Shown here one piece after another: positions 43,359-60,303 of a DNA stretch of 64,000 nt; the first letter of the stretch is position 1; every line of letters starts with the position of its first letter. The DNA is taken from IMG/VR virus record IMGVR_UViG_3300045988_159911. One strand, 5' to 3'. Source of the DNA: a virus. A program made the translations under genes and the position numbers. A model generated the notes under the pieces. It saw only the letters and a program-made list of their open reading frames with translations, was not told the DNA's origin and made no database searches.

Positions 43359-43916
43359 TTAATTTCCTTTGTAATACTCCTCGTGAGGATAAAGTGCATG
43401 GATATCTACATCCATATCACTATTATCGTTTCCGGTGAGTACAAAACTGTCTTCAGAGAAGAGATACCGCAAAAGGCGCCCCTTATTACTTGTAGTCTTA
43501 TCCACAAACCTTTGGTGATCATCTTCACCGCAGTGGTCTACACTTGCATTTACCACATAGGAACCGCTTCCGTAATTGTGGTATACAGCCTCGTCGAACT
43601 CACACTCGACACCAACACTGTCAAGAGTTTCCATGATAAACGCCATGACATCTTGTGCTTTTTCTCTGCTGTAAAGACTCAGAAAACTGGCATAAAGATA
43701 TGCCGCCTTTTCTTCAGGGGTGTCAAGCCGATCAAAACCCCAACCAAAATCTTCACATCGGAAGATAAGTTTGGCAGGGTAAGAAAGTTCCGTGTTACGA
43801 TTGGTTGCAATACAGATGCTGTGGGTGCTGCTGGAGTTTGTTTCAAAAACACCGCGCCGTTCCTGTCTCATTAGGTTTCTCCTCTCGTTCGTATTTGAAA
43901 AGAATTCGTAATCCAT
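43359..43916 (-). CDS. Member 3 of the RRGVFETNSSSTHS family
   Basis: ...RQERRGVFETNSSSTHSI... with further similarity to member 1 (FGW, LTGNDN versus LHTDNDN). Confidence 0.5.
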   Translation of the reverse strand: MDYEFFSNTNERRNLMRQERRGVFETNSSSTHSICIATNRNTELSYPAKLIFRCEDFGWGFDRLDTPEEKAAYLYASFLSLYSREKAQDVMAFIMETLDSVGVECEFDEAVYHNYGSGSYVVNASVDHCGEDDHQRFVDKTTSNKGRLLRYLFSEDSFVLTGNDNSDMDVDIHALYPHEEYYKGN

Positions 43917-44032
43917 TATATATCTCTTAGTGTTCTGTAAGAGATTATGATGCAGAAGAACACACGAAGTGATCTCCGCACGATCCTTTAGGATCGAAGC
44001 AGATCACGAGTGTGAAAAGTAACAAAACCTTA

Positions 44033-44052
44033 CTTCGATTTACAATACGAAG
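44033..44052. repeat. Hairpin CTTCG-ATTTACAATA-CGAAG, copy 1 of the conserved-loop hairpin family
   Basis: Perfect 5-bp stem with the conserved 10-nt loop. Confidence 0.5.
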
Positions 44053-44263
44053 CGACTGCCTCTATGTATTGACTGTGTATGGCAGACCATGTGCATTATA
44101 AATTCTTTTCGGTTGTTTATCGTTCGCAACCTGAATAAAGTGCTTTTGGATCTATCAAGAGCTTTTTGAGACGCCTCGTCGCGAAAAGCTCTTTATCGAT
44201 TCAAAACATCTTTATTTGCAGCGGGGCATGGGGTTTACCCCAGATAAGCTTCTCAACCCTTTA

Positions 44264-44283
44264 CTTCGATTTACAATACGAAG
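44264..44283. repeat. Hairpin CTTCG-ATTTACAATA-CGAAG, copy 2
   Basis: Identical hairpin about 230 nt from copy 1 in the same intergenic region. Confidence 0.5.
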
Positions 44284-44334
44284 CCACCCTATGTATTAAA
44301 GAAATGGGTAAATGTCCGTTGCAAACGCAAAATA

Positions 44335-44928
44335 TTACTCGTGGAAGTGGAACATAACCTCTTCCATTTTGCCAGGTCTTAAAGCCGAAACATAGATCTT
44401 ATCGAAAGCCCATGTTCCAACCTCGGGATCGTCTCCCCGGTAATCGCCACCGCCCTGACCGTTGCCGATACTGGTGAGCAGAGGCAGAGGATTGATACAC
44501 CAACCCTCTTTGTCTTTGTTTTCTGCCACATACTTTTCCATGTCGATGTAGCAATTTCTTGTAATGTTCACAATGAAGCAATCCGCCTCATCATTGGAAA
44601 GCTTGTACTGCGGCAGCTTTCTATCAATCGGCGTGATAACCTCTTTTCCATCACTCCAGAGAGTATTGTAGAGCCGCATGAAATCCTTGCGGTCTGTGAT
44701 AAAAGCATCGCTGAAGCAACACTCATCATCAACTACGCTGTCAGCATAATCGCCGACCCACGCCAGTCGCTGAGGGGTGCCGTCAAGGTTCTGAAGAACT
44801 GCGTTAACGAAATCATTTCCAACCCAGGAATGTTCCATGAGCTTCAGACCGTTGCCGTAATCGTGAGAATAGGCAGTCTGTTTGGTTCCGTCGTCTGCAA
44901 TCAAGAGTGGCTTGTAATACTGACCCAT
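44335..44928 (-). CDS. Hypothetical protein
   Basis: Internal ATG 44928 with RBS AAGGTAGG gives MGQYYKPLLIADDG... Confidence 0.4.
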   Translation of the reverse strand: MGQYYKPLLIADDGTKQTAYSHDYGNGLKLMEHSWVGNDFVNAVLQNLDGTPQRLAWVGDYADSVVDDECCFSDAFITDRKDFMRLYNTLWSDGKEVITPIDRKLPQYKLSNDEADCFIVNITRNCYIDMEKYVAENKDKEGWCINPLPLLTSIGNGQGGGDYRGDDPEVGTWAFDKIYVSALRPGKMEEVMFHFHE

Positions 44929-44969
44929 AGTGAAACCTACCTTTCTTCCTCGCTTTTGAAAAATCGTAA

Positions 44970-45056
44970 TGGTACGGATAGTGGGACTTGAACCCACACA
45001 TCATTGCTGACATTAGCACCTGAAGCTAACGCGTCTGCCAATTCCGCCATATCCGC
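44970..45056 (-). tRNA. tRNA-Leu(CAG), type II
   Basis: Reverse complement is GCGGATATGGCGGAATTGGCAGACGCGTTAGCTTCAGGTGCT...GGGTTCAAGTCCCACTATCCGTACCA, close to E. coli tRNA-Leu(CAG); CCA is encoded. Confidence 0.75.
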
Positions 45057-45229
45057 ATATTTCTTTGGTCGGCTTCCCGCTTAGATTGTCACATCGTCTA
45101 CTTGAGAGTAAAGGTCTCGTTCGCAAACAACCGTGTATACCCGATTGCTCCGCAGTTTTCAGCGGACATTTTCATTCTCTGTGTGGTAAGCCGATAATCG
45201 CACACATCATCTGGGAGCTACCCAGCCAC

Positions 45230-45320
45230 TGGCGGAGCAGATAGGACTTGAACCTACACACCCTTTCGGGCTACTCACGGTTTAGCAAACCGCTGCCTTA
45301 CCAATTAGGCTTACTGCTCC
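45230..45320 (-). tRNA. tRNA-Ser(GCT), type II
   Basis: Anticodon loop TTGCTAA, long variable arm, T-loop GGTTCAAGTCC, CCA encoded. Confidence 0.75.
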
Positions 45321-45324
45321 ATAA

Positions 45325-45400
45325 TGGAGCTGGTGGACGGATTCGAACCCCCGACCTACTGATTACAAATCAGTTGCTCTACCGACTGAGCTACACCAGC
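45325..45400 (-). tRNA. tRNA-Thr(TGT)
   Basis: GCTGGTGTAGCTCAGTCGGTAGAGCAACTGATTTGTAATCAGT...GGTTCGAATCC...CCA. Confidence 0.8.
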
Positions 45401-46015
45401 ATCTCTTTGTAGGGTTTTTCGCGCTTCTGCAGATTTCCACGCCTTGTCCTTACCGTTTATCCCTATTGCCACATGGGATCACAGACCCTAAACACTTCTG
45501 CTCTATGCCGGTTGTGTTCTGATACCGGAAAACATTCTGGGGACTTTATTTTGCCTTGTTGCTCCAGCCCTCAAGGGTAACTCGGCAAGTGGCTTGCCTA
45601 TTTGGATCTTGGTGCCATCATCTCAGCCATACACTCCGGCCTAAACCTAAGTTTGCCAGAACCTCTCCAAATGCTCCTATGTATGCCGTCCTCGCCTCTG
45701 ACTGAAATGATGTGCCGACACCTTCCATACCGTCTCACTTGCAAAATAAAACAAACTACGAACGGGGTGTGGTAAGCACATACCACCCAAACCTCTGCTT
45801 AGTCCCGCCGGTTCTGGTTTACGACATGGTTTGGTGCTCATGCCCTTGAGCTATTAGGCTATTTAACTATCTCTCACCGGCTTGATTTGCTTTTGTTGAG
45901 GCGGTGCCAGAGCACGCTGCTCATATCCCGTTATCTTCCGCCCATCGTAGTCGATGACCCAGCCACTATATATCATTTCAAGTGGGCTTTTCCCATACCG
46001 CCTAAAGCGTATGGC

Positions 46016-46125
46016 TGGTGGAGAGGGATGGATTCGAACCACCGAAGCTTAATTGACCACACGGCGCCCCAAGTCAAAAAGCGGAGATTTACAGTCCCCG
46101 ACTTTGGCCACTTGTCTACCTCTCC
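46016..46125 (-). tRNA. tRNA-Tyr(GTA)-like gene with an abnormally long (about 39-nt) variable region
   Basis: Canonical acceptor stem (GGAGAGG/CCTCTCC), anticodon arm GGGGA-CTGTAAA-TCTCC and T-arm GGTGGTTCGAATCCATC plus CCA are all present. A 39-nt variable insert makes the whole 110 nt. Confidence 0.4.
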
Positions 46126-46283
46126 ATGTGTTTGCCAGCTCCTGCACCTTGTACTTCGGCATCGTCACTGGTAAAAGGATTACGGTGCAGGCACCGTCGT
46201 TCCCCAAAGGCTAACCCTTTTCCGCAGGATTTAATAAAGCATACGCAATGAGCTATTAACTCACTGACCGCGACTCACTTACT

Positions 46284-46359
46284 TGGTGGAGATGGTCGGG
46301 ATCGAACTGGCGACCTCCTGCTTGCAAGGCAGGCGCTCTCCCAACTGAGCTACATCCCC
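46284..46359 (-). tRNA. tRNA-Ala(TGC)
   Basis: GGGGATGTAGCTCAGTTGGGAGAGCGCCTGCCTTGCAAGCAGGAG...CCA; the G3:U70 Ala identity pair is present. Confidence 0.8.
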
Positions 46360-46473
46360 GTATGAAATGATTGTTTTATACACTGTAGATATATTGCAAA
46401 CCATGCCGTAAAGCCCAAAATCAAGGGCTTTACTGACATAGTTAAAACGAAAGATTTTTGGTTTTCCTCCCGT

Positions 46474-46983
46474 TCAGCGCTTGGACACCCGCTTATCCTG
46501 CACCAGACGCTTGAACTTTGTGCCACTTGCTTCGATGTATTCGTCGATCAATTTGCTCTGACTTTTGGTTTCAGCATAAGCTGTGATGGTAAGGGTTTTG
46601 CGCTCCCAATCCATTGTGTAGCTATCACTCGCCACATTGGTAATCTTGTTCTCTGCCAAGAAATCTCGGAGCTTCATCATTTCCTCTTTATCATCTGACA
46701 TGATGACATTCACATAGGTTTTCTCTTTGGAAAACTTATTGTTGAACGCAACTGCCAAACAGCACCCTACGCCGCTTGCAATGGAGACCACTACAAGAGC
46801 GAGGGTGCTGTCGGTAGTTACGATATCTTTCGTGATGCTAAGGTAGATGAAGTTTGACAATCCAAGAGCTAAACCGGCGAGAACACATCGGTTTCTTTGA
46901 ACCAAAATGGTCTTTGCTGTCCCCAGTGCATTATCGAAAACTTTTGCGACGAACAGCGCCGCCAGATATAACCATGATGTCAT
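46474..46983 (-). CDS. Membrane protein (possibly DUF2179/UPF0316-like)
   Basis: N-terminal transmembrane helices followed by a soluble C-terminal domain; 169 aa. Confidence 0.4.
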   Translation of the reverse strand: MTSWLYLAALFVAKVFDNALGTAKTILVQRNRCVLAGLALGLSNFIYLSITKDIVTTDSTLALVVVSIASGVGCCLAVAFNNKFSKEKTYVNVIMSDDKEEMMKLRDFLAENKITNVASDSYTMDWERKTLTITAYAETKSQSKLIDEYIEASGTKFKRLVQDKRVSKR

Positions 46984-47016
46984 TCTCTCATCTCCTCTTC
47001 ATCAAACTATGTATGC

Positions 47017-48510
47017 TTAGTGCTTGTCAGCAATCGCGCCGCCCAGCATACCGGACAGCACGGCCATCAGATCCAGGCCGGTTGCATCCTTGAAACCATC
47101 CTGAACCTGCTTCATGCCGGTGGTAACGGCGCCGGTCAGAGTGGAAGTACCACCCTCGTAGATGGTCATGTTGTCGATACCCTCCATAGGCTTAGCAACG
47201 GCAGCGGCAATCTCAGGCATGGTCTTGACATACTCCATTGCCACATCCAGAACCATCTGCTGCTTAGCAGCGTCGCCGTATTCCTTCATAGCTTCTGCCT
47301 TCTTCAGAATGCCTGCAGCCTCAGCCTCTGCCTTAGCCTGAATGGCCTCGGCTTCAGCACGACCCTTGGCAGCGATACCGGCAGCTTCGTTTTCCATTGC
47401 CACACGAGCAGCTTCGGAACGAGCCTTTTCAGCAGCAGCTCTCTGCTCTGCCTCAAACAGCTCTGCAGCAGCCTGCTTCTGACGCTCGAACAGCTCAGCC
47501 TCAGAAGACTTCTGAACCTCATACAGCTTTGCATCAGCTTCCTGCTGTGCAGCGTACTTATCGGCCTCAGCCTTCTTCTTGATCTCTGCATCCAAAGAAC
47601 GCTCACGGATAGCAACCTCGCGCTCCTTCAGTTCGATTTCCTTTTCCAGACGAGCCAGGTTGGCTTCGGCTGTCTTGGTTTCGATGGATGCACGCTGCTC
47701 CTGCTCCTGAATTGCATAGGCAGCATCTGCTTCTGCTCGCTTGGCGTCCTCAATCTTCTTCAGCTCAGCCATCTGAATGGCAAGCTCGTTCTGACGCTTA
47801 GCAATCTCCTGATCGGACTTAACCTGAGCCTCGTTGGCAGCCATAGCAGCCTGAGCCTGAGCAATAGCAATCTCCTTCTCTGCCTGAGCCTTGGAAATTG
47901 CGGCGTCCTTGGAAATCTGAACAGTGTTCTCCAGACCGAGGTTGTCGATCACGCCGTTGCGATCCTTGAAGTTCTGAATGTTAAAGGTAGTCAGCTCCAG
48001 ACCCATATCGTTCAGGTTGGGAGTAACATTCTCAATGATACGCTCGGCAAAAATCTTCTTGTCACCCTGGATCAGTTCCTTCAGAGTGGTCTGAGAAATG
48101 ATCTCACGAATATTACCCTCCAGAACAGGAGTAATGATTTCGCGAATCTGATTGGGATTATAGCCAAGGAATTTAGAGGCTGCGACCTTCAGCATATCAG
48201 GATCTTTAGCGATGGACACATTGGCTACTGCGTCAACCATAATGTTGATAGCATCCTTGGTGGGGATCTCATCGCGAGAAGTGAAGTCAGACTGAATGTT
48301 TTCCAGAGACATATAGTCGACACGCTGGATGATAGGAATAACCAGTGCGCCCTGACCGATAATTGTTCTTGCACCACGGGGGCCGGTGATGACCATTGCC
48401 ACATTGGGAGGTGCTTTCTTATACATAACCTTGCCAATGAAGATCAGAAGAATGATTGCGACAAGGATGCCGACACCGGCGGTTGCGTAAGGCAAAATCA
48501 TTTCGAGCAT
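47017..48510 (-). CDS. Flotillin/SPFH (band 7) family protein, FloT/YuaG-like
   Basis: N-terminal transmembrane anchor, SPFH domain (VMVITGPRGARTIIGQGALVIPIIQRVDYMSLENIQ) and a long EA-rich coiled coil (AEAEAIQAKAEAEAAGILKKAEA). Confidence 0.65.
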   Translation of the reverse strand: MLEMILPYATAGVGILVAIILLIFIGKVMYKKAPPNVAMVITGPRGARTIIGQGALVIPIIQRVDYMSLENIQSDFTSRDEIPTKDAINIMVDAVANVSIAKDPDMLKVAASKFLGYNPNQIREIITPVLEGNIREIISQTTLKELIQGDKKIFAERIIENVTPNLNDMGLELTTFNIQNFKDRNGVIDNLGLENTVQISKDAAISKAQAEKEIAIAQAQAAMAANEAQVKSDQEIAKRQNELAIQMAELKKIEDAKRAEADAAYAIQEQEQRASIETKTAEANLARLEKEIELKEREVAIRERSLDAEIKKKAEADKYAAQQEADAKLYEVQKSSEAELFERQKQAAAELFEAEQRAAAEKARSEAARVAMENEAAGIAAKGRAEAEAIQAKAEAEAAGILKKAEAMKEYGDAAKQQMVLDVAMEYVKTMPEIAAAVAKPMEGIDNMTIYEGGTSTLTGAVTTGMKQVQDGFKDATGLDLMAVLSGMLGGAIADKH

Positions 48511-48553
48511 TAAGTTTTCTCCTTTATATTCTTGTGATTGGTGACTACGGATT

Positions 48554-48967
48554 TCACTTCTTTACTACCACATCGTTCTCACCCCTTCCAAGTACGCGAG
48601 GGTAATAGACCCTGTTCTCCATCTTCTCTTCGGCTTTTCTCGTTTTGCCGAGAACCTCTTTGAGAAGATTGACTAACTGCCGACCCTTGTCTGTATTTAG
48701 ATACTGAACCAATGGTTCAAGAATCATCGTGGTGTCCTTATGTTCGCGCCGCTCCTGCCGGCACTTTGCAAGTTGCGTTGCGATTTTTGCTCGCTCCTCG
48801 TATTTCAATCCGTCAAGTTCCAGGCTGTGCAGATAATCCTGTGTGAGCTTGTCCATCTCAACGATCTTATCGCTATTCCATTGGTAGTCCTTGATGGCTT
48901 CATCAAACATTCTGCAGACGCTGCTGATGTTTTCGGAGAATGATGGGTTTTGCTTCTGCTTTTTCAT
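48554..48967 (-). CDS. Hypothetical protein
   Basis: 137-aa ORF. Confidence 0.35.
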   Translation of the reverse strand: MKKQKQNPSFSENISSVCRMFDEAIKDYQWNSDKIVEMDKLTQDYLHSLELDGLKYEERAKIATQLAKCRQERREHKDTTMILEPLVQYLNTDKGRQLVNLLKEVLGKTRKAEEKMENRVYYPRVLGRGENDVVVKK

Positions 48968-48969
48968 AC

Positions 48970-49653
48970 CTACACACCTCCGAGCGGGAGAACCCTACGA
49001 TAAAGAGCTGTGTGTCTATCATCAATGTCTAAGTCGACATGATAGTGACCAAAATACCAATGCTTAAACCTGCAATTTTCCTCTACAAACTGCAGAAAAC
49101 TGGTGACCGCGTCGTTCTCATACCAACTTGCAATTTTGGCCTGTATGCTTTTGGATGCACAATGCGTAACTATGTAATCAACACACCAGTTGTGCTTTTC
49201 GAGCGTTTCAACAGCGTGTTCGAACTCTGCTTTGCTCGGGATTTCTTCTTCCCACCAAGATATATTTGGCTTTCTCAAATGCTTGTCATGAGATGATGCC
49301 CCGCCCATGCAGAACACCTTAGCTCCATCAATTTCAAACACCTCGCCACGCATCAAATGAAACAAGCTTGGCTGAATTTGGTGAACTGACCCGCCATACT
49401 GATTTACAATGGGGAACTCTGCGAGCATTCGGTGGTTTTCATGGTTGCCATCCACAAAAAGAGTGGTGAATGATTTTTCTTCGTACCACTTCTGCCAGTA
49501 TCGGTCACATTTCGACCCGTCCCAAACACAACCAAAATCCCCGCATACAATTAGGGAATCGTTTTTGCTCATGGACTTTTGTTGAGGGAAGTTTCTCATT
49601 GCAAGCTTATGAATGTCGATATCTCCATGAGTATCGCCAGTGATATAAACCAT
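48970..49653 (-). CDS. Calcineurin-like metallophosphoesterase
   Basis: MVYITGDTHGD...VCGDFGCVWDG...VDGNHENH metallophosphatase motifs. Confidence 0.7.
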   Translation of the reverse strand: MVYITGDTHGDIDIHKLAMRNFPQQKSMSKNDSLIVCGDFGCVWDGSKCDRYWQKWYEEKSFTTLFVDGNHENHRMLAEFPIVNQYGGSVHQIQPSLFHLMRGEVFEIDGAKVFCMGGASSHDKHLRKPNISWWEEEIPSKAEFEHAVETLEKHNWCVDYIVTHCASKSIQAKIASWYENDAVTSFLQFVEENCRFKHWYFGHYHVDLDIDDRHTALYRRVLPLGGV

Positions 49654-49677
49654 CCGTTCACCCCTTTCCTTTTCGTT

Positions 49678-50010
49678 TCATCTGTAATCTACAAGTACAC
49701 CCGTCTTCTTGAGGAAGCTCTGGAGGGACTCCTCGTCGAGAGCTGAGGCTTCGTGAACCGTGAGTTCGGGATTTCGCATCGGGTCGGTGAGCGAGAAAAC
49801 CCTTGTAGTTACAGGGGTTTTCGAGTGTTTCCGAGTGAGGAAATTTATTTATTTCCTGACCCTGCGAGCAGTGTCATCTCTTGCGCCGGGCGGATTCGCT
49901 GGAGGCGCCTGCCGCAGCGGCGTGCCCCTGGTATTTCCCCCCGGCCATTCGTAACTCCGATTTACAATACGGAGCATTAACTGAAACAGTTAATAATGCA
50001 TTACAGATGA
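49678..50010 (-). repeat. Inverted-repeat-bounded structured intergenic element, copy 1 (about 333 nt)
   Basis: Perfect 11-bp terminal inverted repeats: tcatctgtaat at 49678-49688 and attacagatga at 50000-50010. Contains the GGTATTTCC...CCATTCGTAAC-hairpin-...ATGCATTACA module. Confidence 0.55.
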
Positions 50011-50022
50011 TATTTTCTGGAT

Positions 50023-50577
50023 TTATCTCCAGTGAATTAGATACAAACTGTATTCCTCAGACTCAAGATCCTCGGCGAGTCTGAAGCCGATTGCTTCATA
50101 CTGTGCCCAAATCGCAGACCAGTCGATATAGTCCGTGATTTCGTCTTTGCTGATAAAGTCGAGGATTTCCTTGGTGATACCTGTGTCGAAAGGAACGCCA
50201 AGTTCGGTAGCTATGTAACAGGCGGCGAGTTCTTCGTTACCCATTTTCCAAGTGACCTCGGAAAGATCTTCAAACATGAAGTCATTTTCTTTGATGCGGC
50301 GGACAAATTCTTCGTCTTCAAGTTCTCCATCAACGGCATCCATAATCAGCGCAAGAAGTTCAGCCGTCATACCGGGATTCTCGCTGTTGATGTCGTCAAT
50401 AACTTCATTCAACTCCCAAACATCCATCGTTTGGATACCGGGAATAGACGGCGTACTGTCGATGATGACATACTCGTTTTGGCGATTCAGTTCAGAGCGA
50501 ATATTAGATGGGATCGTGACAGTCTTATCCGCGCAACCGTCATCCCAGTCCTGCAGTTCAAGTTCCAGTTTAATCAT
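50023..50577 (-). CDS. Hypothetical acidic protein
   Basis: 184-aa ORF flanked by the repeat elements. Confidence 0.4.
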   Translation of the reverse strand: MIKLELELQDWDDGCADKTVTIPSNIRSELNRQNEYVIIDSTPSIPGIQTMDVWELNEVIDDINSENPGMTAELLALIMDAVDGELEDEEFVRRIKENDFMFEDLSEVTWKMGNEELAACYIATELGVPFDTGITKEILDFISKDEITDYIDWSAIWAQYEAIGFRLAEDLESEEYSLYLIHWR

Positions 50578-50606
50578 TTGCCATCACCTCTTATTGTTTT
50601 GTTTGG

Positions 50607-50949
50607 TTTCTTTGTAATCATTACATATATATCCTGATTCCCTTCAGTGCGATCATCGCTGGGATGCCAATCCCAGTTCTGTCGTCATCTGATGTGATTT
50701 GGACTTCTTGCAGTTGGGAAACCACCTAATTCCGAGGTCTTAATTGGTGTTTTGCACGGAATTATTTATTTAGTCTTGGTTCAACCGCCGGAGACTGGGT
50801 GCCTCTTGAGGTGTTAACGCGTTGACGGCCGGCGGAGCTGCGGGCGTCACCAGTGGTGGGCTATGTATTTCCTCCCGACCATTCGTTACTTTGATTGACA
50901 ATACAAAGTGCTACTTGCCAAAGACAAACAGCTATGCATTACAAAGAAA
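50607..50949 (-). repeat. Inverted-repeat-bounded structured intergenic element, copy 2 (about 343 nt)
   Basis: Perfect 12-bp inverted repeats: tttctttgtaat at 50607-50618 and attacaaagaaa at 50938-50949. Both arms carry the same substitution (CTTTG instead of ATCTG), so they have covaried. Confidence 0.55.
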
Positions 50950-50955
50950 TTTGGT

Positions 50956-51150
50956 TTAGAATATTGCTTGTTCGTACTGTGCTTGGGTTATTTCGCCGTT
51001 CTTGCAAAGAGCGTCAATCCAGCACGACCACTCAAACTGAACCTTACAGTAGTCGTCCTGACGCGCTCTCAGGTAGGCTTTATAGTCACCGCCGAACGCT
51101 TCGTCGATGAATCTTCTTCTCAGGGTTTTTCGTCTTTGGCGTCTATACAT
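50956..51150 (-). CDS. Hypothetical small protein
   Basis: 64-aa ORF. Confidence 0.3.
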   Translation of the reverse strand: MYRRQRRKTLRRRFIDEAFGGDYKAYLRARQDDYCKVQFEWSCWIDALCKNGEITQAQYEQAIF

Positions 51151-51839
51151 TATCCGTTGTCAACCTCCTCGGCAAAGAAAGTTTCGTTCATATATGCCAG
51201 AACACGGTCGGCATATCCACTCGTGCCCGGGCTACCAGTGTTATAGCAGGTAAGGGCAGACTCGACCGACCCGTACTTTTCTATCAATTCGGCAAGCAAA
51301 TCGCATCCGACTCTGAAGTTTGAAAGAGGATCGGAAAGGTCTGTCACACCAAGCCGCTCCATTCTTTCCTGGTGCCAACGAGGCTGAACCTGCATATACC
51401 CGATGCTGTTTCCATTGTCGCCATTTACATTCCTGTATGTGGACTCACGGAAAATAACCGCCAAAGCAAGCTCATAAGGGCAGCCTGTTTCTTCACAAGC
51501 TGCCCATACAAGTTTCTGCAATTCATATTCAAGGGAAATATTTTCGTAGTATCGAAATGTCTCTTCCGGTTCCGGTTCTGGGGTGGGCTCTGAAACTAAC
51601 ATGGTTTCGCGTGGAATATACACCGGTGGAACAACCATCGGTTCAAGTTTTAATGGAATAGTTTCGTATGTATCGCTGATAGCAGGAGTTGGGATTTCCG
51701 GCTCAGCATCTGCAGCCGGATTTGAAAGGCCACATAAAACCACGGTTACGAATGCCAGAAAAAGCAGCATTGCGATGATATGCGGAAACCGTCTGTGAGA
51801 ACGGCGCCGTCTTCGTCTTTTCTGATACAAGGGTAACAC
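51150..51839 (-). CDS. Lytic transglycosylase (SLT domain) with an N-terminal membrane anchor
   Basis: AVIFRESTYRN...SIGYMQV SLT catalytic motif; N-terminal transmembrane helix. Confidence 0.6.
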   Translation of the reverse strand: MLPLYQKRRRRRRSHRRFPHIIAMLLFLAFVTVVLCGLSNPAADAEPEIPTPAISDTYETIPLKLEPMVVPPVYIPRETMLVSEPTPEPEPEETFRYYENISLEYELQKLVWAACEETGCPYELALAVIFRESTYRNVNGDNGNSIGYMQVQPRWHQERMERLGVTDLSDPLSNFRVGCDLLAELIEKYGSVESALTCYNTGSPGTSGYADRVLAYMNETFFAEEVDNG

Positions 51840-51864
51840 TCCTCTCTTGTGACCGATGCTGAAA

Positions 51865-53010
51865 CTACTGGTTGAGATCCTCGCTCATGCTTTTCATAAC
51901 ATCGGTGTGGAACTTCTCATTGTTGTACTTGATTACGCTATCTACATACTCTTTTTCGACCATGCTGTAATAGTTGACCAAACCACGCAGAACCTGTACA
52001 TCGTGCAGATCCCAATGGCGACCATTCTGCCGGTCGAGAATGTAGTTGCAAATCATTGCCCGCAAGCGCTGTTTGTTCTTATAACCAATGGTGATCTCAT
52101 TATCCTTATTGAGCATCACACCGAGGTTCCAATTACTTCCAGCGCGTGAGCCATAGCGCGTCTTTTCGTCTTTGATCTTAAAAGGAGCACCAAACTCTGC
52201 GAGGGTAGAATTGATAAAGCCGATGATTTCATCCTTATCAAAACCCTTACGGCTTGAAAAGAGAGAGTCATCGGCATATCTGGTATATACATAATGATTT
52301 CCATTGAAGTCGCGCAGGCAATTGTTGATACGATGGTCAATGGGAATCATCATCAGATTCGTGAGCATAGGGGAAATAGGTGTTCCCTGCGGGAGACCAC
52401 CGTTCAGGAAACACAGATCCAACGCTTTTTCCAAAGCATCAAATCCGCGCTGAGATTTTACGATCTCGCTAAATGGAAATACTTTGGAAAGCATAGACAT
52501 CAGGAACTTCGGAGTTGTGCTGCCAAAGAAGTCAGAGAAGTCGGTCTTGAGGAACCAATGACTCTCATTCTTCTGATGACGCTTTACCGCGTCGATGGTA
52601 GATCTTCCGGGAACATAAGCAAATGCGCTGGTATGATACAGCGCAAACATCTGGGTTTCAAAAATCGTTTTCAGATTTCTGAGCGCATTCATCAGCGCTG
52701 GCTGCGGCGCATTGATCTCACGCAAGCCACCGGACTTCTTAGGGATATAGAACTTATCGTAGAGGTCGCTGCGCTTTGCCTCGTAAAGTTTAGCGTTCTG
52801 CTTGCAAAACTCTTCCAAGGTTACGACCATTGCATCAATATCAAAACGCTCAAGGAACTTGGGGTTCAGAACTTTGGAAAAGTAAGTTCTTGTGTTGGTC
52901 TCATTGGGGTTGACCATGTTGGCGAGATTGACATTCCCCGAAATAATTTCATCAAATGTGATCTGATGGAAAATCGGAGACTGCATCAGCGTAATGTAAG
53001 GCACTTCCAA
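51865..53010 (-). CDS. Reverse transcriptase, retron/DRT-like (not DGR-type)
   Basis: RT motifs IPKKSGGLREINAP, LKTDFSDFFGS, GLPQGTPISPMLTNL (QGxxxSP) and YTRYADDSLFS (YADD). The ORF begins at a TTG; a GTG at codon 3 sits 7 nt after RBS GGAGG. Confidence 0.8.
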   Translation of the reverse strand: MEVPYITLMQSPIFHQITFDEIISGNVNLANMVNPNETNTRTYFSKVLNPKFLERFDIDAMVVTLEEFCKQNAKLYEAKRSDLYDKFYIPKKSGGLREINAPQPALMNALRNLKTIFETQMFALYHTSAFAYVPGRSTIDAVKRHQKNESHWFLKTDFSDFFGSTTPKFLMSMLSKVFPFSEIVKSQRGFDALEKALDLCFLNGGLPQGTPISPMLTNLMMIPIDHRINNCLRDFNGNHYVYTRYADDSLFSSRKGFDKDEIIGFINSTLAEFGAPFKIKDEKTRYGSRAGSNWNLGVMLNKDNEITIGYKNKQRLRAMICNYILDRQNGRHWDLHDVQVLRGLVNYYSMVEKEYVDSVIKYNNEKFHTDVMKSMSEDLNQ

Positions 53011-53031
53011 ACCTCCTTTTTCATTATTCGT

Positions 53032-53358
53032 ATCTGTAATCTACATACTCTGTGATGAGATGACCAGATCAGCTCAGGATACTCGTAGATCTTCAGATTC
53101 CTGGATTCGGACATCTGATGGCTATGAAGTAACGGTGAACTCCTGGTTGTGCAGGTAATGAGTCTTGGATTTCCTGTGGTTCCTTAAAGTTTTCTTCAGG
53201 AGACACTGATGAAACTCTTGACTTTTGCTGTATAACCTGCGATGCTGCGACCGAGTCGCTGCAGCGTTTCTGGGTAGCCGGGTATTTCCCGTCCACCATT
53301 CGTAACTTTGATTTACAATACAAAGCACTTCCTATTCGGGAAGTAATGCATTACAGAT
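53032..53358 (-). repeat. Inverted-repeat-bounded structured intergenic element, copy 3 (about 327 nt), directly upstream of the reverse transcriptase; candidate msr/msd-like ncRNA locus
   Basis: 9-bp inverted repeats: atctgtaat at 53032-53040 and attacagat at 53350-53358. Shares the conserved module and hairpin with copies 1 and 2. Confidence 0.5.
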
Positions 53359-53363
53359 CTCGT

Positions 53364-54245
53364 TTACATCTTTTTCAGAATCGCAAAGAACTCCTCTTCA
53401 TCAATCTCGATGATCTCCTGTGGAGCACTGAGAACCTCATAGTACCCATCGCCGTCAGGCTCATCTGAGATTAGGATTTCAGGATTGAGTTTCAAAGCTG
53501 GGCGCACCCCCACACAATCGCCGCAAGCATAGGCATCGCTGAAATCGCCATCGCGATTAACGCAACGCACATTGTACGAGTCGCCAGAGTTCGGGGAGCG
53601 CAGGTAGTAGTACCACTCCTCGTCTTCATATTCGGGCTTGTCATTATTGGGAGTATTGGCGTACAGTTCGGGAGAGAACAGGCAAGCTCTGTTTGCACCG
53701 TCCGCAAACAAATCCCAAACCTCGCCCTCCTGAATGCGGTTTTCAGTTCCACCGCCCACATTGGTTCTGGAGGGCATGAAAACCTTAGCATAAATGGTTT
53801 CATACTTTTCGCCACCAGTAGGAATATCCTTGGTAGGCAGCGCCGTTTTGATCTCGGACTCCTCAATGGCTTCGACTTCCCACTCCTCAAAGTAGTGCAG
53901 GAAACCAGGCTTTTGAACATAACCGTAGCGACCATTGTACATCAGGCGATCTTCAGGAGCCGTGTCGTGTTCGTGTGTCGGACGGAACCAGTCGGTGCCC
54001 TCGGCATTCAGGAACTGATGGCCGTTACTTAAGGAGTAGCGGTTGTTACCGTAACTCCTGCGGTATTCGTCGGGGTTATCGGACTCTTTTGCATCAAATG
54101 CACACTGATCTTCCATAAACTCGGTCAAGATCGTGCCGTCGCGATGAGCCTTTACCCAGCAAATCTTATGCGGCATCTCACCGCTGACGCTATAAGCGCC
54201 GAACTTCAGTTTTGCCCCGATGGGCAGGTCTGCGATAGTAGGCAT
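53364..54245 (-). CDS. Hypothetical protein with a DUF1566-like C-terminus (possible adhesin or receptor-binding domain)
   Basis: C-terminus WYYYLRSPNSGDSYNVRCVNRDGDFSD...GVRPALKL resembles the VRCVR/GVRP signature. Confidence 0.35.
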   Translation of the reverse strand: MPTIADLPIGAKLKFGAYSVSGEMPHKICWVKAHRDGTILTEFMEDQCAFDAKESDNPDEYRRSYGNNRYSLSNGHQFLNAEGTDWFRPTHEHDTAPEDRLMYNGRYGYVQKPGFLHYFEEWEVEAIEESEIKTALPTKDIPTGGEKYETIYAKVFMPSRTNVGGGTENRIQEGEVWDLFADGANRACLFSPELYANTPNNDKPEYEDEEWYYYLRSPNSGDSYNVRCVNRDGDFSDAYACGDCVGVRPALKLNPEILISDEPDGDGYYEVLSAPQEIIEIDEEEFFAILKKM

Positions 54246-54269: not shown

Positions 54270-54947
54270 TTAGAACGCATCAACCGTGTGACCAAAAGCG
54301 TCGATCAAGATCAGCTTACGCAGATCGCCGCCCTTGACAAAATTGATGAAGTTGGAGACTCCGCAAGCAACAATCATTCTGACCGTCGGAACCACGGACA
54401 GAGTGACATTGCAGGCAGAAACAGGAGTCTCTTCCTTAGCCTCCTCGTGAGAGAATGCCATGCTCTTGATGAAATCCTCAACCATCTTCTGGTTGTCCCA
54501 AGCCGCAGCATAGTGCTGGGCGTCAGTCAGTCTCATACGGAAGTCAAACATTCCCTTGACATACTGATTTTCCTTGCACTTGGTGGCAATCTCACGGCGG
54601 AGGTCGATATTATCCACGCAGAGGAAAACATAACCGGAAAGCCGCTGACCTGTCCAACCATCGGGAACCAACTTAAGCTCCTCCGCGCAATCGGGATTGA
54701 TCTCACACAGGTAATCAGCAAGCGCCTCGATCTTCAGCTTGCCGATGTCGGTCTGACGGAACATCTGGTTTGCGATGTTATGCGCCTCAACCTTGTCGAA
54801 ATCGTAAAGAGTAATTTTGGTGATACCGAACCGAACCAGATTTTCTGCGACGGTCGATCCGATTGCACCGCAGCCGATGATATGCACACGAGAGGTCAGC
54901 ATATCAGGCTTGAAAAAGTCGTAAGACTTGGACAAATCCATAGCCAT
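54270..54947 (-). CDS. E1-like enzyme, ThiF/MoeB family
   Basis: VHIIGCGAIGSTVAENLVRFGITKITLYDFDKVEAHNIANQMFRQTDIGKLKIEALADYLCEINPD shows the Rossmann GxGxxG motif and the ThiF signature. Confidence 0.7.
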   Translation of the reverse strand: MAMDLSKSYDFFKPDMLTSRVHIIGCGAIGSTVAENLVRFGITKITLYDFDKVEAHNIANQMFRQTDIGKLKIEALADYLCEINPDCAEELKLVPDGWTGQRLSGYVFLCVDNIDLRREIATKCKENQYVKGMFDFRMRLTDAQHYAAAWDNQKMVEDFIKSMAFSHEEAKEETPVSACNVTLSVVPTVRMIVACGVSNFINFVKGGDLRKLILIDAFGHTVDAF

Positions 54948-54968
54948 TTGGTCAGTCTCCCTTCTTAT

Positions 54969-55838
54969 TTATTTCTGAAAGCGACCATAGTCATAGATGC
55001 CGTACTGATCGTCGTCATCATCGTAGCCGCCATAATTGTATCCTTTGCCGGAACTTCCGATGTCGGGCTTATCCTTCTTGCCTCCCTTGGGCTTACTCTT
55101 GGTCTTGTCGGAACCGGCCTGAGCCTGGAAACCCGTCTGCTGCTTGCCATACTGGTAGCCACCCTGTCCGTACTGGCCTCCGCCGTACTGATAGGTCTTG
55201 GTCTTGACCAGCTCCTTGGCATCCTTGACAAAAGCATCCAAGTCGCAGCCTTCGTCGCCAATGTAGATCTCGACATCGCCAGTTTCATATAGCGTATTGT
55301 TCGCCAGGTCATAGATCTTGATGGTCTTTTCAAACTTCTTGTTCCAAATCATAAAGATGTAGAACATATCATCATCGATCTGGCTTAGGATTTTCTCCTG
55401 ATGAGTGATATCCACCGGGGACGGGCTGGTAGAGTAATTCACATGGGAATGACCCTGCATACGGATGTTGTTAAACACATCATCGTCGAACTCGTACAGC
55501 CAAGTCTGATACGGAATCTGTTCCGTATTGGCTGTGCCGCCAGTAACGATCTGGGGGTAAACCATAATGTCGGTAATATAGAACCGGTTAGGTTCCTTTT
55601 CATCACGGAAAACCACACCGTGCCAAGCAACCTCCGTTTCAAATCCCTGGATAAGCATAACCATCTTGGCGTATGCAACGGGAGAAAAGACAACCTGAGC
55701 CTTTTCGTCGCCCTCCCACTTGAAGTTCTTGGTATAGTTGACTTTTCCGTCAGACATTTTTGCCTTCTTGACGGTCTCGACGAACTCTTTCGTGATCGTA
55801 GCAATCAGCTCGTCGGTAAGCTTAATCGGCTTACTCAT
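54969..55838 (-). CDS. JAB/MPN (JAMM) metalloprotease domain protein with a Gly/Tyr-rich tail
   Basis: E...HSHVNYSTSPSPVD matches the JAMM motif HxHx7Sx2D. C-terminal low-complexity tail YQYGGGQYGQGGYQYG. Confidence 0.6.
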   Translation of the reverse strand: MSKPIKLTDELIATITKEFVETVKKAKMSDGKVNYTKNFKWEGDEKAQVVFSPVAYAKMVMLIQGFETEVAWHGVVFRDEKEPNRFYITDIMVYPQIVTGGTANTEQIPYQTWLYEFDDDVFNNIRMQGHSHVNYSTSPSPVDITHQEKILSQIDDDMFYIFMIWNKKFEKTIKIYDLANNTLYETGDVEIYIGDEGCDLDAFVKDAKELVKTKTYQYGGGQYGQGGYQYGKQQTGFQAQAGSDKTKSKPKGGKKDKPDIGSSGKGYNYGGYDDDDDQYGIYDYGRFQK

Positions 55839-57348
55839 GTGCTTCCTCCTTTTTCTTTTGCTTTTCCGCATCTTGTGCCTCCAACCACTTCACTGCATCC
55901 AGAGGCGTTGCGGTAGAACCATCGGGCATCTGGATAATCTTGCCCACATCGTTTGCACAAATCTTCTGCATGAAGAAAGTACCCGTGTTGGCTTCAGTAA
56001 AGTTAGCATTCGTAGCAGACGCGCAACAATTGCTAACCGCAGCAACATAGTCGCGATTAACCATTGCTCTTCTGATATACGACTCGTTATTACCAAGGCA
56101 ACCATAAACCTGAATGTGCTGATTAGGAACATGGTCTACAAGGATTTCCGCCGGATAATTGTAGTTTCTAAGACCATAGTAACCACCGTTTGCGAAGTTC
56201 AAACGGTATGCGGCACATACACGAAGCTTCAGAACCTCATCAAGGAACAAAGCTTTAACCAGACGATGGATACGCTCGTCTGTCATTTCTTTGTTCTGAT
56301 ACTTGCCATGTGTCTCATAATGGCGATAGAAGAAGCTTTTGCCAAACTTATCCAAAGCAGTTTCGACCACTTCCGGATCATAGCTGGAAATCGTAGTTTC
56401 TACGATAAACTCAATTTCGCCGCCACTAACACGAACAAGGTTCAACGATTTATTACAGAGAAAATATTCCATAAACTCCGTATCTTCGCCATTATCCCCG
56501 TCGCCTCGTATCTTAGCGATCAAACCCAATTCCTGAGTAGTAAGGTCTGAAATCTGCACATACAGGTCGCGGAACTGCTGCTCCAATCGCTCCAGACGAT
56601 TGCGGTTGTCCGTAATCTGCCGCTGAACAGCCTGAAGTTTGTCCTTTTCAAAGGCATTCTCAAAACCACGGAGCATATTGCGAACTGCCTGCGTTCTGAA
56701 ATCAAACTTCTTAGCGAATTGTTCAATCAGCTCGGTATAATCAGGAGCATAACGCTTGGTGAGGGAACGGATCAGCGCAACCTCTTCGTCGTTGAAGGGG
56801 TTTTCGCGTACATACCAGGGCATATAGCGGGGAATCAGAGACTGCAACAGGTGCCATCTCTTGATATCCAGCTTTTCAACGAAAATCAGAACGGACTTAC
56901 GCTCCTCGCTGATGAACACCCGGGCGCGAACCTTGCCGTTCTGTTCCAGAAACTTAGATACATCGGGCAGAGCGATAAAAGCATTGCCCAGTGCGGCATT
57001 TACACCGCCATTGTCGATAGCAGCGAAGCTTGCGGTGTTGCCCTCTTCGTCACCATCAAAAGTGTGAATATGCAGAGCACCGGGAACTGCAGACATAATA
57101 TCGGTATTTCTCAGGAATGCACGGACGCAATCCTTAGCAGTTGCTCCGTCAATTTCATACTTACCATAACGAGAGGCAGTAACGCGAAGCAAAATGGACT
57201 CTTCTTTCGGAACCCTTTTGTACATAAGGGCTCGCAAGGTCGCCAGAAAAGAGGTATCGCCTCTAAAGTCCTGCCCATTGATGTTTTGGAACAGACCATC
57301 GGCGACCTGTTTGGTGAGAGTCAGAACAGAAAGAGTTTTGTTAAACAT
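55831..57348 (-). CDS. Large hypothetical protein (505 aa) in the E1/JAB cluster; possible E2-like Cys segment
   Basis: HVPNQHIQVYGCLG weakly resembles the UBC HPN...GxxC motif. Confidence 0.3.
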   Translation of the reverse strand: MFNKTLSVLTLTKQVADGLFQNINGQDFRGDTSFLATLRALMYKRVPKEESILLRVTASRYGKYEIDGATAKDCVRAFLRNTDIMSAVPGALHIHTFDGDEEGNTASFAAIDNGGVNAALGNAFIALPDVSKFLEQNGKVRARVFISEERKSVLIFVEKLDIKRWHLLQSLIPRYMPWYVRENPFNDEEVALIRSLTKRYAPDYTELIEQFAKKFDFRTQAVRNMLRGFENAFEKDKLQAVQRQITDNRNRLERLEQQFRDLYVQISDLTTQELGLIAKIRGDGDNGEDTEFMEYFLCNKSLNLVRVSGGEIEFIVETTISSYDPEVVETALDKFGKSFFYRHYETHGKYQNKEMTDERIHRLVKALFLDEVLKLRVCAAYRLNFANGGYYGLRNYNYPAEILVDHVPNQHIQVYGCLGNNESYIRRAMVNRDYVAAVSNCCASATNANFTEANTGTFFMQKICANDVGKIIQMPDGSTATPLDAVKWLEAQDAEKQKKKEEAHE

Positions 57349-60214: not shown

Positions 60215-60303
60215 TGGCGGAGAGGGTGGGATTCGAACCCACGGAGGTTTTACCCTCGCCGGTTTTCAAGACCGGTTCCTTAAACCAGCTCGAACACCTC
60301 TCC
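60215..60303 (-). tRNA. tRNA-Ser(TGA), type II
   Basis: ...GGAACCGGTCTTGAAAACCGGCGAGGG...GGGTTCGAATCCCACCCTCTCCGCCA, similar to E. coli tRNA-Ser(TGA). Confidence 0.75.

What the first reader, a model, noticed from the sequence alone, without database searches (positions are those of the whole stretch)
49678..53358. Three paralogous elements of about 330-345 nt, each bounded by perfect 9-12-bp inverted repeats, each exactly filling an intergenic gap
Copy 1 (49678-50010) has TCATCTGTAAT/ATTACAGATGA ends, copy 2 (50607-50949) has TTTCTTTGTAAT/ATTACAAAGAAA ends, and copy 3 (53032-53358) has ATCTGTAAT/ATTACAGAT ends. In copy 2 both repeat arms carry the same substitution, so the pairing has been maintained by covariation. 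Each element starts within about 15 nt of the stop of the upstream gene and ends just before the RBS of the downstream gene. Roughly 100 nt next to the TGTAATGCAT end are conserved across copies (GGTATTTCC..CCATTCGTAAC, then a hairpin, then ATGCATTACA); the rest is divergent. Only copy 3 adjoins the RT. Two readings fit: (a) retron-like msr/msd ncRNA genes present in multiple orphan copies; (b) a MITE-like mobile element with terminal inverted repeats that targets intergenic sites. The latter would make it an active small non-autonomous element in a phage genome.
Basis: seen in the sequence. Interest (0 to 1): 0.8.

Follow-up and report, generated by a model that had tools for sequence, protein, structure and literature searches.

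The report
Phage retron-like RT with five template RNAs
The three repeats are genes for structured RNAs with the hallmarks of retron primer-template RNAs, all apparently served by one phage reverse transcriptase; retrons are normally bacterial, single-RNA anti-phage systems, so several RNAs fixed in a gut phage lineage is unusual.

Summary
The three 327-343-nt elements lie on the minus (coding) strand and exactly fill three intergenic gaps. I found two more, shorter copies (about 203 nt) at 43902-44325.

Each element has the retron ncRNA layout:
- a terminal a1/a2 stem of 8-12 bp;
- a G right after a1 and a G right before a2;
- two msr hairpins;
- a variable template region.

The gene beside copy 3 encodes a divergent retron-type reverse transcriptase (RT). 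Related gut-phage contigs show the same arrangement. All 209 detected copies lie on the RT strand. They sit at syntenic positions, and their closing stems and hairpins covary.

This rules out the MITE reading and supports the multi-copy msr/msd reading.

The three long copies depart from canonical retrons. Their roughly 200-nt template region is A/C-rich, on average not significantly structured across the family, and drifts at about the neutral rate. The two short copies carry classical long msd-type hairpins. No effector gene is recognisable. The RT is linked to an E1-like gene in 44 of 45 loci found through that gene.

DNA synthesis and biological role are inferred, not shown. I found no description of a natural multi-ncRNA retron, or of this phage family, in Rfam or in the papers searched.

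The parts
53032..53358 (-). Copy 3, a long retron-like ncRNA (327 nt) directly upstream of the RT. a1 is 53358-53350 (AUCUGUAAU). The putative branching G is 53349. The a1+msr module runs to about 53280. The variable template region is about 53270-53060. The opposing G is 53041. a2 is 53040-53032.
   Evidence: MFE closes a1/a2; z -4.3; CM 67.4 bits.
51865..53004 (-). Retron-type reverse transcriptase, 379 aa. It starts at GTG 53004, 7 nt after GGAGG. It carries QGxxxSP and YADD motifs. The retron NAxxH motif reads AVKRH and the VTG triplet reads NLG.
   Evidence: PADLOC RT_II-A 1.2e-48; retron_St85_RT 184.7 bits, cutoff 235; top 11 fold matches are retron RTs.
50607..50949 (-). Copy 2, a long retron-like ncRNA (343 nt), between the 64-aa ORF and the 184-aa ORF. 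a1 is 50949-50938. The putative branching G is 50937. The opposing G is 50619. a2 is 50618-50607.
   Evidence: (67.5 bits).
49678..50010 (-). Copy 1, a long retron-like ncRNA (333 nt), between the 184-aa ORF and the metallophosphoesterase gene. a1 is 50010-50000. The putative branching G is 49999. The opposing G is 49689. a2 is 49688-49678.
   Evidence: z -4.1; 74.1 bits.
44123..44325 (-). Copy 4a, a short retron-like ncRNA (203 nt), new in this analysis. The closing stem is UUUGCAAC|G...G|GUUGCGAA (8 bp, one G-U). It has hairpin 1, hairpin 2 with the same UAUUGUAAAUC loop, and a long msd-type hairpin.
   Evidence: partial CM hit; orthologues in L002, L003 with covarying stems.
43902..44105 (-). 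Copy 4b, a short retron-like ncRNA (204 nt), new in this analysis. The closing stem is GAAUUUAUAAU|G...G|AUUACGAAUUC (11 positions, one A-C mismatch). It has hairpins 1 and 2 and an 18-bp msd-type hairpin (-24.4 kcal/mol, z -4.8). The L002 orthologue has a 26-bp perfect hairpin of different sequence.

Best explanation
The elements are genes for retron-type non-coding RNAs (msr-msd). There are five in this window, and all appear to be served by the one phage-encoded retron-type RT at 53004-51865.

Proposed mechanism, with the status of each step:
1. Each RNA is transcribed on the minus strand with the surrounding genes. The strand is shown; the transcript ends and any processing are not.
2. The terminal repeats a1 and a2 pair and close the molecule. 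This places the G after a1 opposite the G before a2 (shown by covariation).
3. The shared 5' module is the RT recognition site, which would explain why it is the conserved part. It consists of hairpin 1, hairpin 2 with loop UAUUGUAAAUC, and the motif AGUWACGAAUGG. The structure is shown; its role in recognition is inferred.
4. The RT uses the 2'-OH of the G after a1 to prime cDNA synthesis into the region upstream of a2. The product would be RNA-linked single-stranded DNA, one species per RNA (inferred from retron biology).

The two short RNAs have classical msd hairpins. The three long ones would give DNAs of up to about 200 nt that are G/T-rich and weakly structured. Their sequence drifts at about the neutral rate, while their length and composition are kept.

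I therefore infer that the long products act through bulk properties such as abundance, single-strandedness or the branch, not through sequence. The most likely use is as decoys or sponges in counter-defence or inter-phage competition. That last step is speculation.
For: **RT identity**
- Best profile matches are all retron RTs.
- It aligns end to end with Ec83 and Ec78 RTs, keeping the H of NAxxH and the G of VTG.
- The AlphaFold model (mean pLDDT 82.9) matches retron RTs in the first 11 PDB hits.

**RNA structure**
- The covariance model found 166 matches in 67 sources, all on the RT strand.
- 127 of 145 distinct sequences among the 150 best covariance-model matches have a closing stem of at least 7 bp flanked by G...G (most 9-13 bp, up to 18), spaced about 180-410 nt apart. 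There are 20 different 7-nt stem ends.
- In a search without the G requirement, the best stem is still flanked by G and G in 81 of 118 cases.
- Closing stem: 91.7% of cells paired, 11 of 11 pairs with double changes, versus 29-42% paired in slid controls.
- Hairpin 2: 98.2% paired, with 251 compensatory cells.
- Hairpin 1 is present in 97% of 67 distinct sequences, against 37% of shuffles.

**Arrangement**
- Multi-copy sets are conserved: 33 of 83 loci have 3 detectable copies and 8 have 4.
- Copies usually sit one upstream of the RT and two just downstream.
- Copies 4a and 4b have canonical msd hairpins that differ in sequence between phages.

**Defining features used**: Mestre et al. 2020, PMC7736814.
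Against: - No experiment shows cDNA, a branch, or even the RNA ends.
- The RT falls below NCBIfam's retron cut-off (184.7 vs 235 bits). It has lost the N and A of NAxxH and the V and T of VTG.
- The template region of the long type lacks a canonical long msd hairpin. Mean z is -0.8 over 100 representatives, though the window's copies score -2.9, -1.0 and -3.3.
- No known effector domain was found in ten neighbouring ORFs.
- a2 positions were chosen by complementarity, so the stem statistics are partly circular.
- A role for neutrally drifting templates is unproven.
Confidence: 0.72

Rival explanations
1. The RNAs are partners of the RT but do not work like retrons. They might be scaffolds or regulators of the RT. 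Or they might be templates copied by another route, such as protein-primed, 3'-end-primed or template-jumping synthesis, as in DRT2- or DRT9-type systems.
For: - The long copies lack the canonical msd hairpin.
- The RT has degenerate NAxxH and VTG motifs and an extra roughly 70 N-terminal residues.
- No effector is present.
- DRT2 and DRT9 RTs also appear among the fold matches, though lower in the list.
Against: - The a1/a2 stem with two opposing G residues is the specific retron priming geometry. It is invariant in 65 of 65 aligned ends.
- Copies 4a and 4b have canonical msd hairpins.
- There is no open frame across the template like that of DRT2 Neo. The antisense open fraction equals that of shuffles, 0.72 vs 0.72.
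- The RT is much closer to retron RTs than to DRTs.
Confidence: 0.17
2. The elements are cis-acting leader, processing or attenuator elements for the downstream genes. Their association with the RT is only synteny.
For: - Each element ends just before a ribosome-binding site and fills a gap between co-oriented genes.
- No separate promoter or terminator signal exceeds chance.
Against: - The downstream genes differ: RT, a 184-aa ORF, a phosphoesterase, or another copy in tandem.
- In most relatives two copies lie head to tail with no gene between them.
- The element is found next to the RT across the whole lineage, down to 41-45% RT identity.
- The retron-specific G...G geometry has no role in a leader.
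Confidence: 0.06
3. The elements are MITE-like non-autonomous transposons with terminal inverted repeats that target intergenic sites.
For: - They have terminal inverted repeats, a uniform size and intergenic positions.
- Copy 2 is flanked by TTTGG on both sides.
Against: - 209 of 209 copies are on the RT strand.
- Positions are syntenic between phages with near-saturated silent sites.
- Terminal repeats differ between copies and covary.
- Copies 1 and 3 have no flanking duplication, and the TTTGG is absent in the L075 orthologue.
- No transposase is present.
- No copies lie elsewhere in 64 kb.
Confidence: 0.02
4. The elements are template repeats of a diversity-generating retroelement (DGR).
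For: - A phage RT sits next to non-coding repeats.
- The middle regions are highly variable between relatives.
Against: - The RT has QGxxxSP, not the DGR-type motif, and matches retron RTs first.
- No variable-repeat counterpart of any middle region exists in the window.
- Substitutions are not adenine-specific.
- Variability is about neutral.
Confidence: 0.01

Closest known systems
Bacterial retrons of RT clade 1 (types I-A and II-A1: Ec78/Eco7, Ec83, St85/Sen2)
   Same: - The RT sequence and fold are closest to these retrons.
- The ncRNA lies next to the RT on the same strand.
- It has an a1/a2 closing stem, two opposing G residues and two msr hairpins.
- Copies 4a and 4b also have a long msd hairpin of variable sequence.
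   Different: - There are five ncRNA genes per RT instead of one.
- Three have long (about 200 nt), A/C-rich templates that are weakly structured across the family.
- No ATPase, HNH or NDT effector, nor any PADLOC effector, is present.
- The module sits in the replication arm of a roughly 95-135-kb phage and is fixed in that lineage.
- The NAxxH and VTG motifs are degenerate.
Retron-like RT of Staphylococcus jumbo phages (MarsHill gp206 and relatives)
   Same: - It is a phage-encoded retron-like RT without a linked effector.
- It is preceded by a long (1.2 kb) non-coding region proposed to hold the ncRNA (bioRxiv 10.1101/2020.12.14.422802).
- It shows about 27-32% identity to the RT here.
   Different: - It is a different phage group and host.
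- The RT is 501 aa with a 200-residue N-terminal domain.
- No ncRNA structure or copy number was reported there, and I did not analyse that locus.
Engineered retron arrays ('multitrons', PMC10370050)
   Same: One retron RT serves several ncRNAs or msds with different templates in the same cell.
   Different: Multitrons are synthetic constructs made for multiplex editing. The case here is natural, and the templates match nothing else in the window.
DRT2 and DRT9 defence reverse transcriptases with upstream ncRNA
   Same: An RT is paired with a structured ncRNA that supplies the template. The products act as DNA rather than being integrated.
   Different: - They belong to a different RT lineage (Drt2 profile only 45 bits).
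- They have no a1/a2 stem with opposing G residues.
- Nothing here suggests a concatemer-encoded ORF.

Membership tests
Retron | The RT belongs to the retron clade by sequence and fold. | tested here: met
   PADLOC top hits are all retron RTs, with RT_II-A at 1.2e-48. PDB sequence hits are Ec83 at 2.4e-22 and Ec78. The first 11 Foldseek hits are retron RTs. However, it scores below NCBIfam's retron_St85 cut-off, 184.7 vs 235 bits.
Retron | Region X NAxxH motif and region Y VTG triplet in the RT. | tested here: inconclusive
   Aligned to Ec83 and Ec78, NAKIH becomes AVKRH and VTG becomes NLG. Only the residues that Mestre et al. call most conserved (H and G) are kept.
Retron | The ncRNA gene is contiguous with the RT on the same strand. 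| tested here: met
   Copy 3 ends 27 nt before the RT start. 69 loci have a copy within 450 nt upstream of the RT, and 209 of 209 copies are on the RT strand.
Retron | Terminal inverted repeats a1/a2 close the transcript. | tested here: met
   Stems are 8-12 positions in the five window copies, and 127 of 145 distinct sequences among the 150 best covariance-model matches have a closing stem of at least 7 bp (most 9-13 bp, up to 18). 91.7% of cells are paired, and 11 of 11 pairs show changes on both sides. Caveat: a2 was located by complementarity.
Retron | A conserved branching G lies at the 3' end of a1, facing a G at the 5' side of a2. | tested here: met
   G12 and G22 are invariant in 65 of 65 aligned ends, though the a1/a2 search required both. 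Without that requirement, G and G flank the best stem in 81 of 118 cases. The feature is described in PMC7736814, Fig. 2 legend.
Retron | The msr region has one to three hairpins. | tested here: met
   There are two hairpins. Hairpin 2 is 98.2% paired with 251 compensatory cells. Hairpin 1 is present in 97% of sequences vs 37% of shuffles.
Retron | The msd region forms a long, stable stem-loop. | tested here: inconclusive
   Met for the short copies: 4b at -24.4 kcal/mol, z -4.8, and its L002 orthologue with 26 bp at -59.3 kcal/mol. Not met for the long type across the family, where mean z is -0.8 and 16% fall below -2.
Retron | Production of msDNA joined to the RNA by a 2'-5' bond. | not testable with these tools
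   This needs expression plus gel or sequencing assays.
Retron | An associated effector gene or domain (tripartite system). | tested here: not met
   No PADLOC or Pfam effector domain was found in ten neighbouring ORFs. Only an E1-like ThiF protein and a weak JAB hit appeared. Stand-alone ncRNA-RT cassettes are, however, known (PMC7736814).
MITE / non-autonomous transposon | Conserved terminal inverted repeats, target-site duplications, either orientation, and presence/absence polymorphism. | tested here: not met
   The repeats covary instead of being conserved. There is no consistent duplication. Only one orientation occurs. Positions are syntenic.
Diversity-generating retroelement | A template repeat matching a variable repeat in a target gene, with adenine-specific differences, a DGR-type RT and Avd. 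| tested here: not met
   No second match of any middle region exists in the window. The substitution spectrum is not A-specific. The RT is retron-like.
Rfam RNA families | A match to any curated covariance model. | tested here: not met
   Only tRNAs matched, at gathering thresholds over the whole window and at E<=5 over 43800-53500.

The most novel reading that the evidence does not exclude
A whole lineage of large gut phages has fixed a retron-derived RT together with three to five primer-template RNAs as part of its standard gene set. During infection it would mass-produce several RNA-linked single-stranded DNAs, some about 200 nt long, whose sequence is free to drift. This would be a natural 'multitron' used by the virus itself, for counter-defence, competition or a DNA-metabolic step, rather than by a bacterium against viruses.
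Probability: 0.4. Interest if true: 0.85.

Novelty: new variant of a known kind. Interest (0 to 1): 0.72.

Why it matters
Retrons are understood as bacterial anti-phage systems made of one RT, one ncRNA and one effector. Here the same priming architecture appears in a different setting:
- three to five RNAs for one RT;
- no recognisable effector;
- a place in the replication arm of a virus;
- conservation across a phage lineage sampled from many animal and human gut metagenomes.

If the RNAs are reverse-transcribed, this shows that phages have taken over retron chemistry for their own purposes. It also raises the question of what bulk single-stranded DNA does during infection.

There is a practical angle too. 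An RT that naturally accepts several RNAs in trans, and apparently long unstructured templates, is the property sought for retron-based multiplex genome editing.

Tried and rejected
1. **Hypermutation of the template region.** Diversity there (pi 0.16-0.375) is 3-7 times that of RT third codon positions. But four-fold degenerate sites of the neighbouring genes have pi 0.15-0.24. Between the window and L071/L075 the middle regions are 31-58% diverged, against 32-64% at four-fold sites. So the rate is about neutral. Claim dropped.
2. **DGR-like adenine mutagenesis.** All four bases vary, and transitions dominate.
3. **A gene encoded by the cDNA, like DRT2 Neo.** The longest open frame is 0.72 of the length on the antisense strand, the same as shuffles. 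On the sense strand it is 0.80 vs 0.73.
4. **Targets of the templates within the window.** Only chance matches of 11-13 nt were found.
5. **A long msd hairpin in the long copies.** The family mean z is -0.8.
6. **The 184-aa acidic protein between copies 2 and 1 as an ArdA-like anti-restriction protein.** This was a recollection. Pfam gave no support even at E<=10 for four orthologues, and PDB gave none.
7. **The metallophosphoesterase as a debranching enzyme.** There is no PDB sequence match, so this remains untested speculation.
8. **Promoters and terminators.** Counts are no higher than in shuffles.
9. **Rfam.** No family matched.
10. **DNA similarity to GenBank phages.** None was found. By protein, only one human faecal phage record reached 43%.
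11. **Literature.** Searches for phage-encoded or multi-ncRNA retrons found no description of this family.
12. **Stop-codon reassignment.** A crude ORF-coverage test was uninformative.


Full report
**1.

The three elements are at the stated coordinates with the stated arms. Their shared 26-nt core and the motif TGTAATGCAT each occur exactly three times in 64 kb. Shuffles give 0.00 and 0.10 expected hits.

All genes from about 46 to 58 kb are on the minus strand. Read on that strand, each element begins 5-12 nt after the upstream stop and ends shortly before the GGAGG-type ribosome-binding site of the next gene.

The gene order on the minus strand is:
- DUF6273 protein
- copy 3
- RT
- SLT transglycosylase
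- 64-aa ORF
- copy 2
- 184-aa ORF
- copy 1
- metallophosphoesterase

The conserved 85-100 nt are therefore the 5' end of each element.

**2. The neighbouring enzyme is a retron-type RT**

- The ORF has Pfam RVT_1, plus the QGxxxSP and YADD motifs.
- Its best PADLOC matches are all retron RTs, led by RT_II-A at 1.2e-48.
- Its best NCBIfam match is retron_St85_RT. The score of 184.7 bits is below the cut-off of 235. Group II intron RT scores 85.6 bits and Drt2 45.2 bits.
- Against PDB sequences it aligns over its length with the Ec83 and Ec78 RTs. The retron NAxxH motif reads AVKRH and VTG reads NLG, so only the H and the G survive. Mestre et al. describe those two as the most conserved residues.
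- An AlphaFold model (mean pLDDT 82.9) finds retron RTs as its first 11 PDB matches, ahead of group II intron RTs.
- The true start is most likely GTG 53004. This gives 379 aa, as in most homologues, and L071 has ATG at the same place.

**3. The elements have retron ncRNA anatomy, and relatives prove it by covariation**

The RT has many close homologues. More than 100 share 62-95% identity in metagenomes. I also retrieved 70 IMG/VR viral loci and 28 MAG contigs. The MAG contigs come from animal and human gut samples and carry inconsistent taxonomy, which suggests phage contigs binned by mistake.

*Detection of copies*
- A self-comparison of the 420 nt upstream of each RT finds one to three extra paralogous copies in most loci. 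Typically two lie in tandem right after the RT stop.
- A covariance model of the 5' module finds 166 matches in 67 sources, every one on the RT strand.
- A sequence profile finds 209 of 209 on that strand. Among 83 loci with enough flanking sequence, the copy counts are 0 (11 loci), 1 (12), 2 (19), 3 (33) and 4 (8).

*Closing stem*
- Among the 150 best covariance-model matches (145 distinct sequences), 127 have a closing stem of at least 7 bp in the form a1|G...G|a2 (most 9-13 bp, up to 18), about 180-410 nt apart.
- There are 20 different 7-nt stem ends, for example CUGUAAU, CUGUAAC, UUGCAAU, GUACAAU, CUACGAU and GCGUAAU.
- On 65 distinct pairs of ends, 91.7% of cells pair. All 11 pairs show changes on both sides, in 175 cells. 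The value is 70% in shuffles and 29-42% when the partner is slid.
- The two flanking G residues are invariant in that alignment, though the search required both. When the search did not require them, they still flank the best stem in 81 of 118 cases.
- Caveat: a2 was located by complementarity. However, its position is also fixed by the conserved AUGUAG that precedes it.

*msr hairpins*
- Hairpin 2 is 98.2% paired with 251 compensatory cells.
- Hairpin 1 has unrelated sequences but folds in 97% of 67 distinct cases, against 37% of shuffles.

An inverted repeat closing the RNA, two opposing G residues and one to three msr hairpins are the features used to recognise retron ncRNAs (PMC7736814). 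No Rfam family matches.

**4. Two more copies in the window**

With filters off, the model gives two partial hits about 5.7 kb further along the minus strand. Reading the 465-nt gap between the ORFs ending at 44335 and starting near 43871 shows two tandem units:
- 4a at 44325-44123;
- 4b at 44105-43902.

Each is about 203 nt. Each has the same hairpin-2 loop, its own closing stem flanked by G...G, and a long hairpin in the template part.

Orthologues in L002-L004 keep the layout with different stem sequences. The template hairpin of 4b is 18 bp in the window (-24.4 kcal/mol, z -4.8) and a perfect 26 bp of unrelated sequence in L002 (-59.3 kcal/mol). This is the canonical retron msd. Because these units share the msr module, they tie the three long elements to the same RT.

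**5. How the long elements differ from textbook retrons**

Their roughly 200-nt middle has these properties:
- It is A/C-rich: A 0.30, C 0.30, G 0.21, T 0.19, against 0.28/0.22/0.25/0.25 for the loci overall.
- It is on average no more structured than dinucleotide shuffles. Mean z is -0.8 over 100 representatives, and the window's copies score -2.9, -1.0 and -3.3.
- It carries no open-frame signal.
- It matches nothing else in the window.
- It cannot be aligned between phages whose RTs are 83% identical.

I first suspected targeted hypermutation. Among six phages with 97% identical RT genes, the three middle regions have pi 0.25, 0.16 and 0.375, against 0.056 at RT third positions. But four-fold sites of the flanking genes have pi 0.15-0.24. 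Between the window and its closest relatives, the middles are 31-58% diverged against 32-64% at four-fold sites. The spectrum is not base-specific.

So the middle evolves at about the neutral rate. The a1, msr, final 10-30 nt and a2 are strongly conserved. Length and composition are nevertheless maintained in more than 100 independent copies.

**6. The MITE reading fails**

- Only one orientation occurs.
- Positions are syntenic in L001 and L004.
- Copies cluster around the RT and none lie elsewhere.
- The terminal repeats covary rather than being conserved.
- There is no consistent target-site duplication. Copy 2's TTTGG is absent in L075.

In most relatives the two downstream copies are adjacent. 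In the window's clade a 184-aa gene sits between them. This looks like gene insertion between RNAs, not RNA mobility.

**7. Context**

The window is the replication and nucleotide-metabolism arm of a large phage. It carries NrdD, a DNA methyltransferase, DNA polymerase, primase, DnaB, a CCA-adding enzyme and tRNAs, all on the minus strand.

Upstream of the RT is a block of a 505-aa protein, a roughly 300-aa protein and an E1-like ThiF protein. This block is present in 66 of 70 RT loci.

Searching by the E1-like gene alone returns 45 viral loci, and 44 of them carry the RT 0.3-1.9 kb downstream. The exception has only about 330 nt of downstream sequence. Even where RT identity falls to 41-50%, many of the gaps before the RT (at least 10 of the 19 examined) hold a roughly 260-340-nt unit of the form a1|G...AG|a2. 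Candidates also follow the RT stop, 25 against 9 in shuffles.

The module is therefore fixed in the lineage, not a sporadic island. No known effector domain is nearby.

**8. Mechanism and confidence**

*Shown*
- The strand of the elements.
- Their structure, with covariation.
- Association with a retron-type RT carrying the QGxxxSP and YADD motifs.
- Multiplicity of copies.
- The evolutionary pattern of a conserved frame around a drifting middle.

*Inferred*
- The RT binds the shared msr module.
- It primes from the 2'-OH of the G after a1.
- It copies the region upstream of a2 into RNA-linked ssDNA, one species per RNA.

*Speculative*
- The purpose of the products. Because the long templates drift neutrally while length and composition are held, I favour a sequence-independent role, such as decoy or sponge ssDNA in counter-defence or inter-phage competition.

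My estimates are about 0.9 that these are RT-partnered structured RNAs and about 0.72 that they work by retron-type priming.

**9. Novelty**

In the searchable literature I found bacterial and prophage retrons with one ncRNA. I also found a note of an effector-less retron-like RT with a 1.2-kb non-coding region in Staphylococcus jumbo phages, and engineered retron arrays. I found no natural multi-ncRNA retron and no description of this gut-phage family. The library does not cover subscription journals, so prior description cannot be excluded. I rate this a new variant of a known kind.

Noticed in passing
window 54270-57348 (minus): A conserved block sits upstream of the RT. It comprises a 505-aa protein, a 300-aa protein with a weak JAB hit (E 7e-4), and a 225-aa E1-like ThiF protein (Pfam 1.4e-26; PADLOC E1-E2 7e-20). 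It is present in 66 of 70 RT loci. 44 of 45 loci found through the E1-like gene carry the RT just downstream. This may be a phage ubiquitin-like conjugation module. Any functional link to the RT is unknown.
   Followed up: partly
window 47017-48510 (minus) and 47020-48513 (plus): A 497-aa SPFH/Band 7 plus flotillin-domain protein is encoded in a phage. A full-length 497-codon open frame lies on the opposite strand, almost exactly mirroring it.
   Followed up: no
window 44970-46359, 60215-60303, 61338-61410 (minus): There is a tRNA cluster (Leu-CAG, Ser-GCU, Thr-UGU, Ala-UGC) and a Ser-UGA tRNA. A 107-nt Rfam-only tRNA hit at 46019-46125 was not called by ARAGORN and may contain an intron. A tRNA at 61338-61410 has an odd 6-nt anticodon loop and no assignable anticodon.
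   Followed up: partly
window 53364-54245 (minus): A DUF6273 protein (PHROG label 'Hoc-like head decoration') is inserted between the E1-like gene and the first ncRNA in 44 of 70 loci. A structural-type domain is out of place in an early or replication arm.
   Followed up: no
window 48970-49653 (minus): A metallophosphoesterase (PHROG 1649, 5.8e-37) directly follows the last long ncRNA and is present in 39 of 70 loci. Lariat debranching enzymes belong to this superfamily (from my own knowledge), so a role in processing branched RNA-DNA is conceivable. I have no evidence for it, and there was no PDB sequence match.
   Followed up: partly
window 49700-49760 (copy 1, 3' part) vs L075: A local hairpin GCUCU...AGAGC in copy 1 becomes GCUCC...GGAGC in the L075 orthologue, a compensatory change. 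This suggests some conserved structure near the proposed start of reverse transcription.
   Followed up: no
L127 9382-10178: A distant relative (RT about 53% identical) appears to carry three tandem a1|G...AG|a2 units immediately after the RT. The sequence profile does not detect them, so copy numbers in divergent loci are probably underestimated.
   Followed up: partly
window 20509-21462 (minus): A 317-aa ORF has a weak integrase-family PHROG match (2.5e-12) within the replication arm. Whether the phage is temperate was not examined.
   Followed up: no
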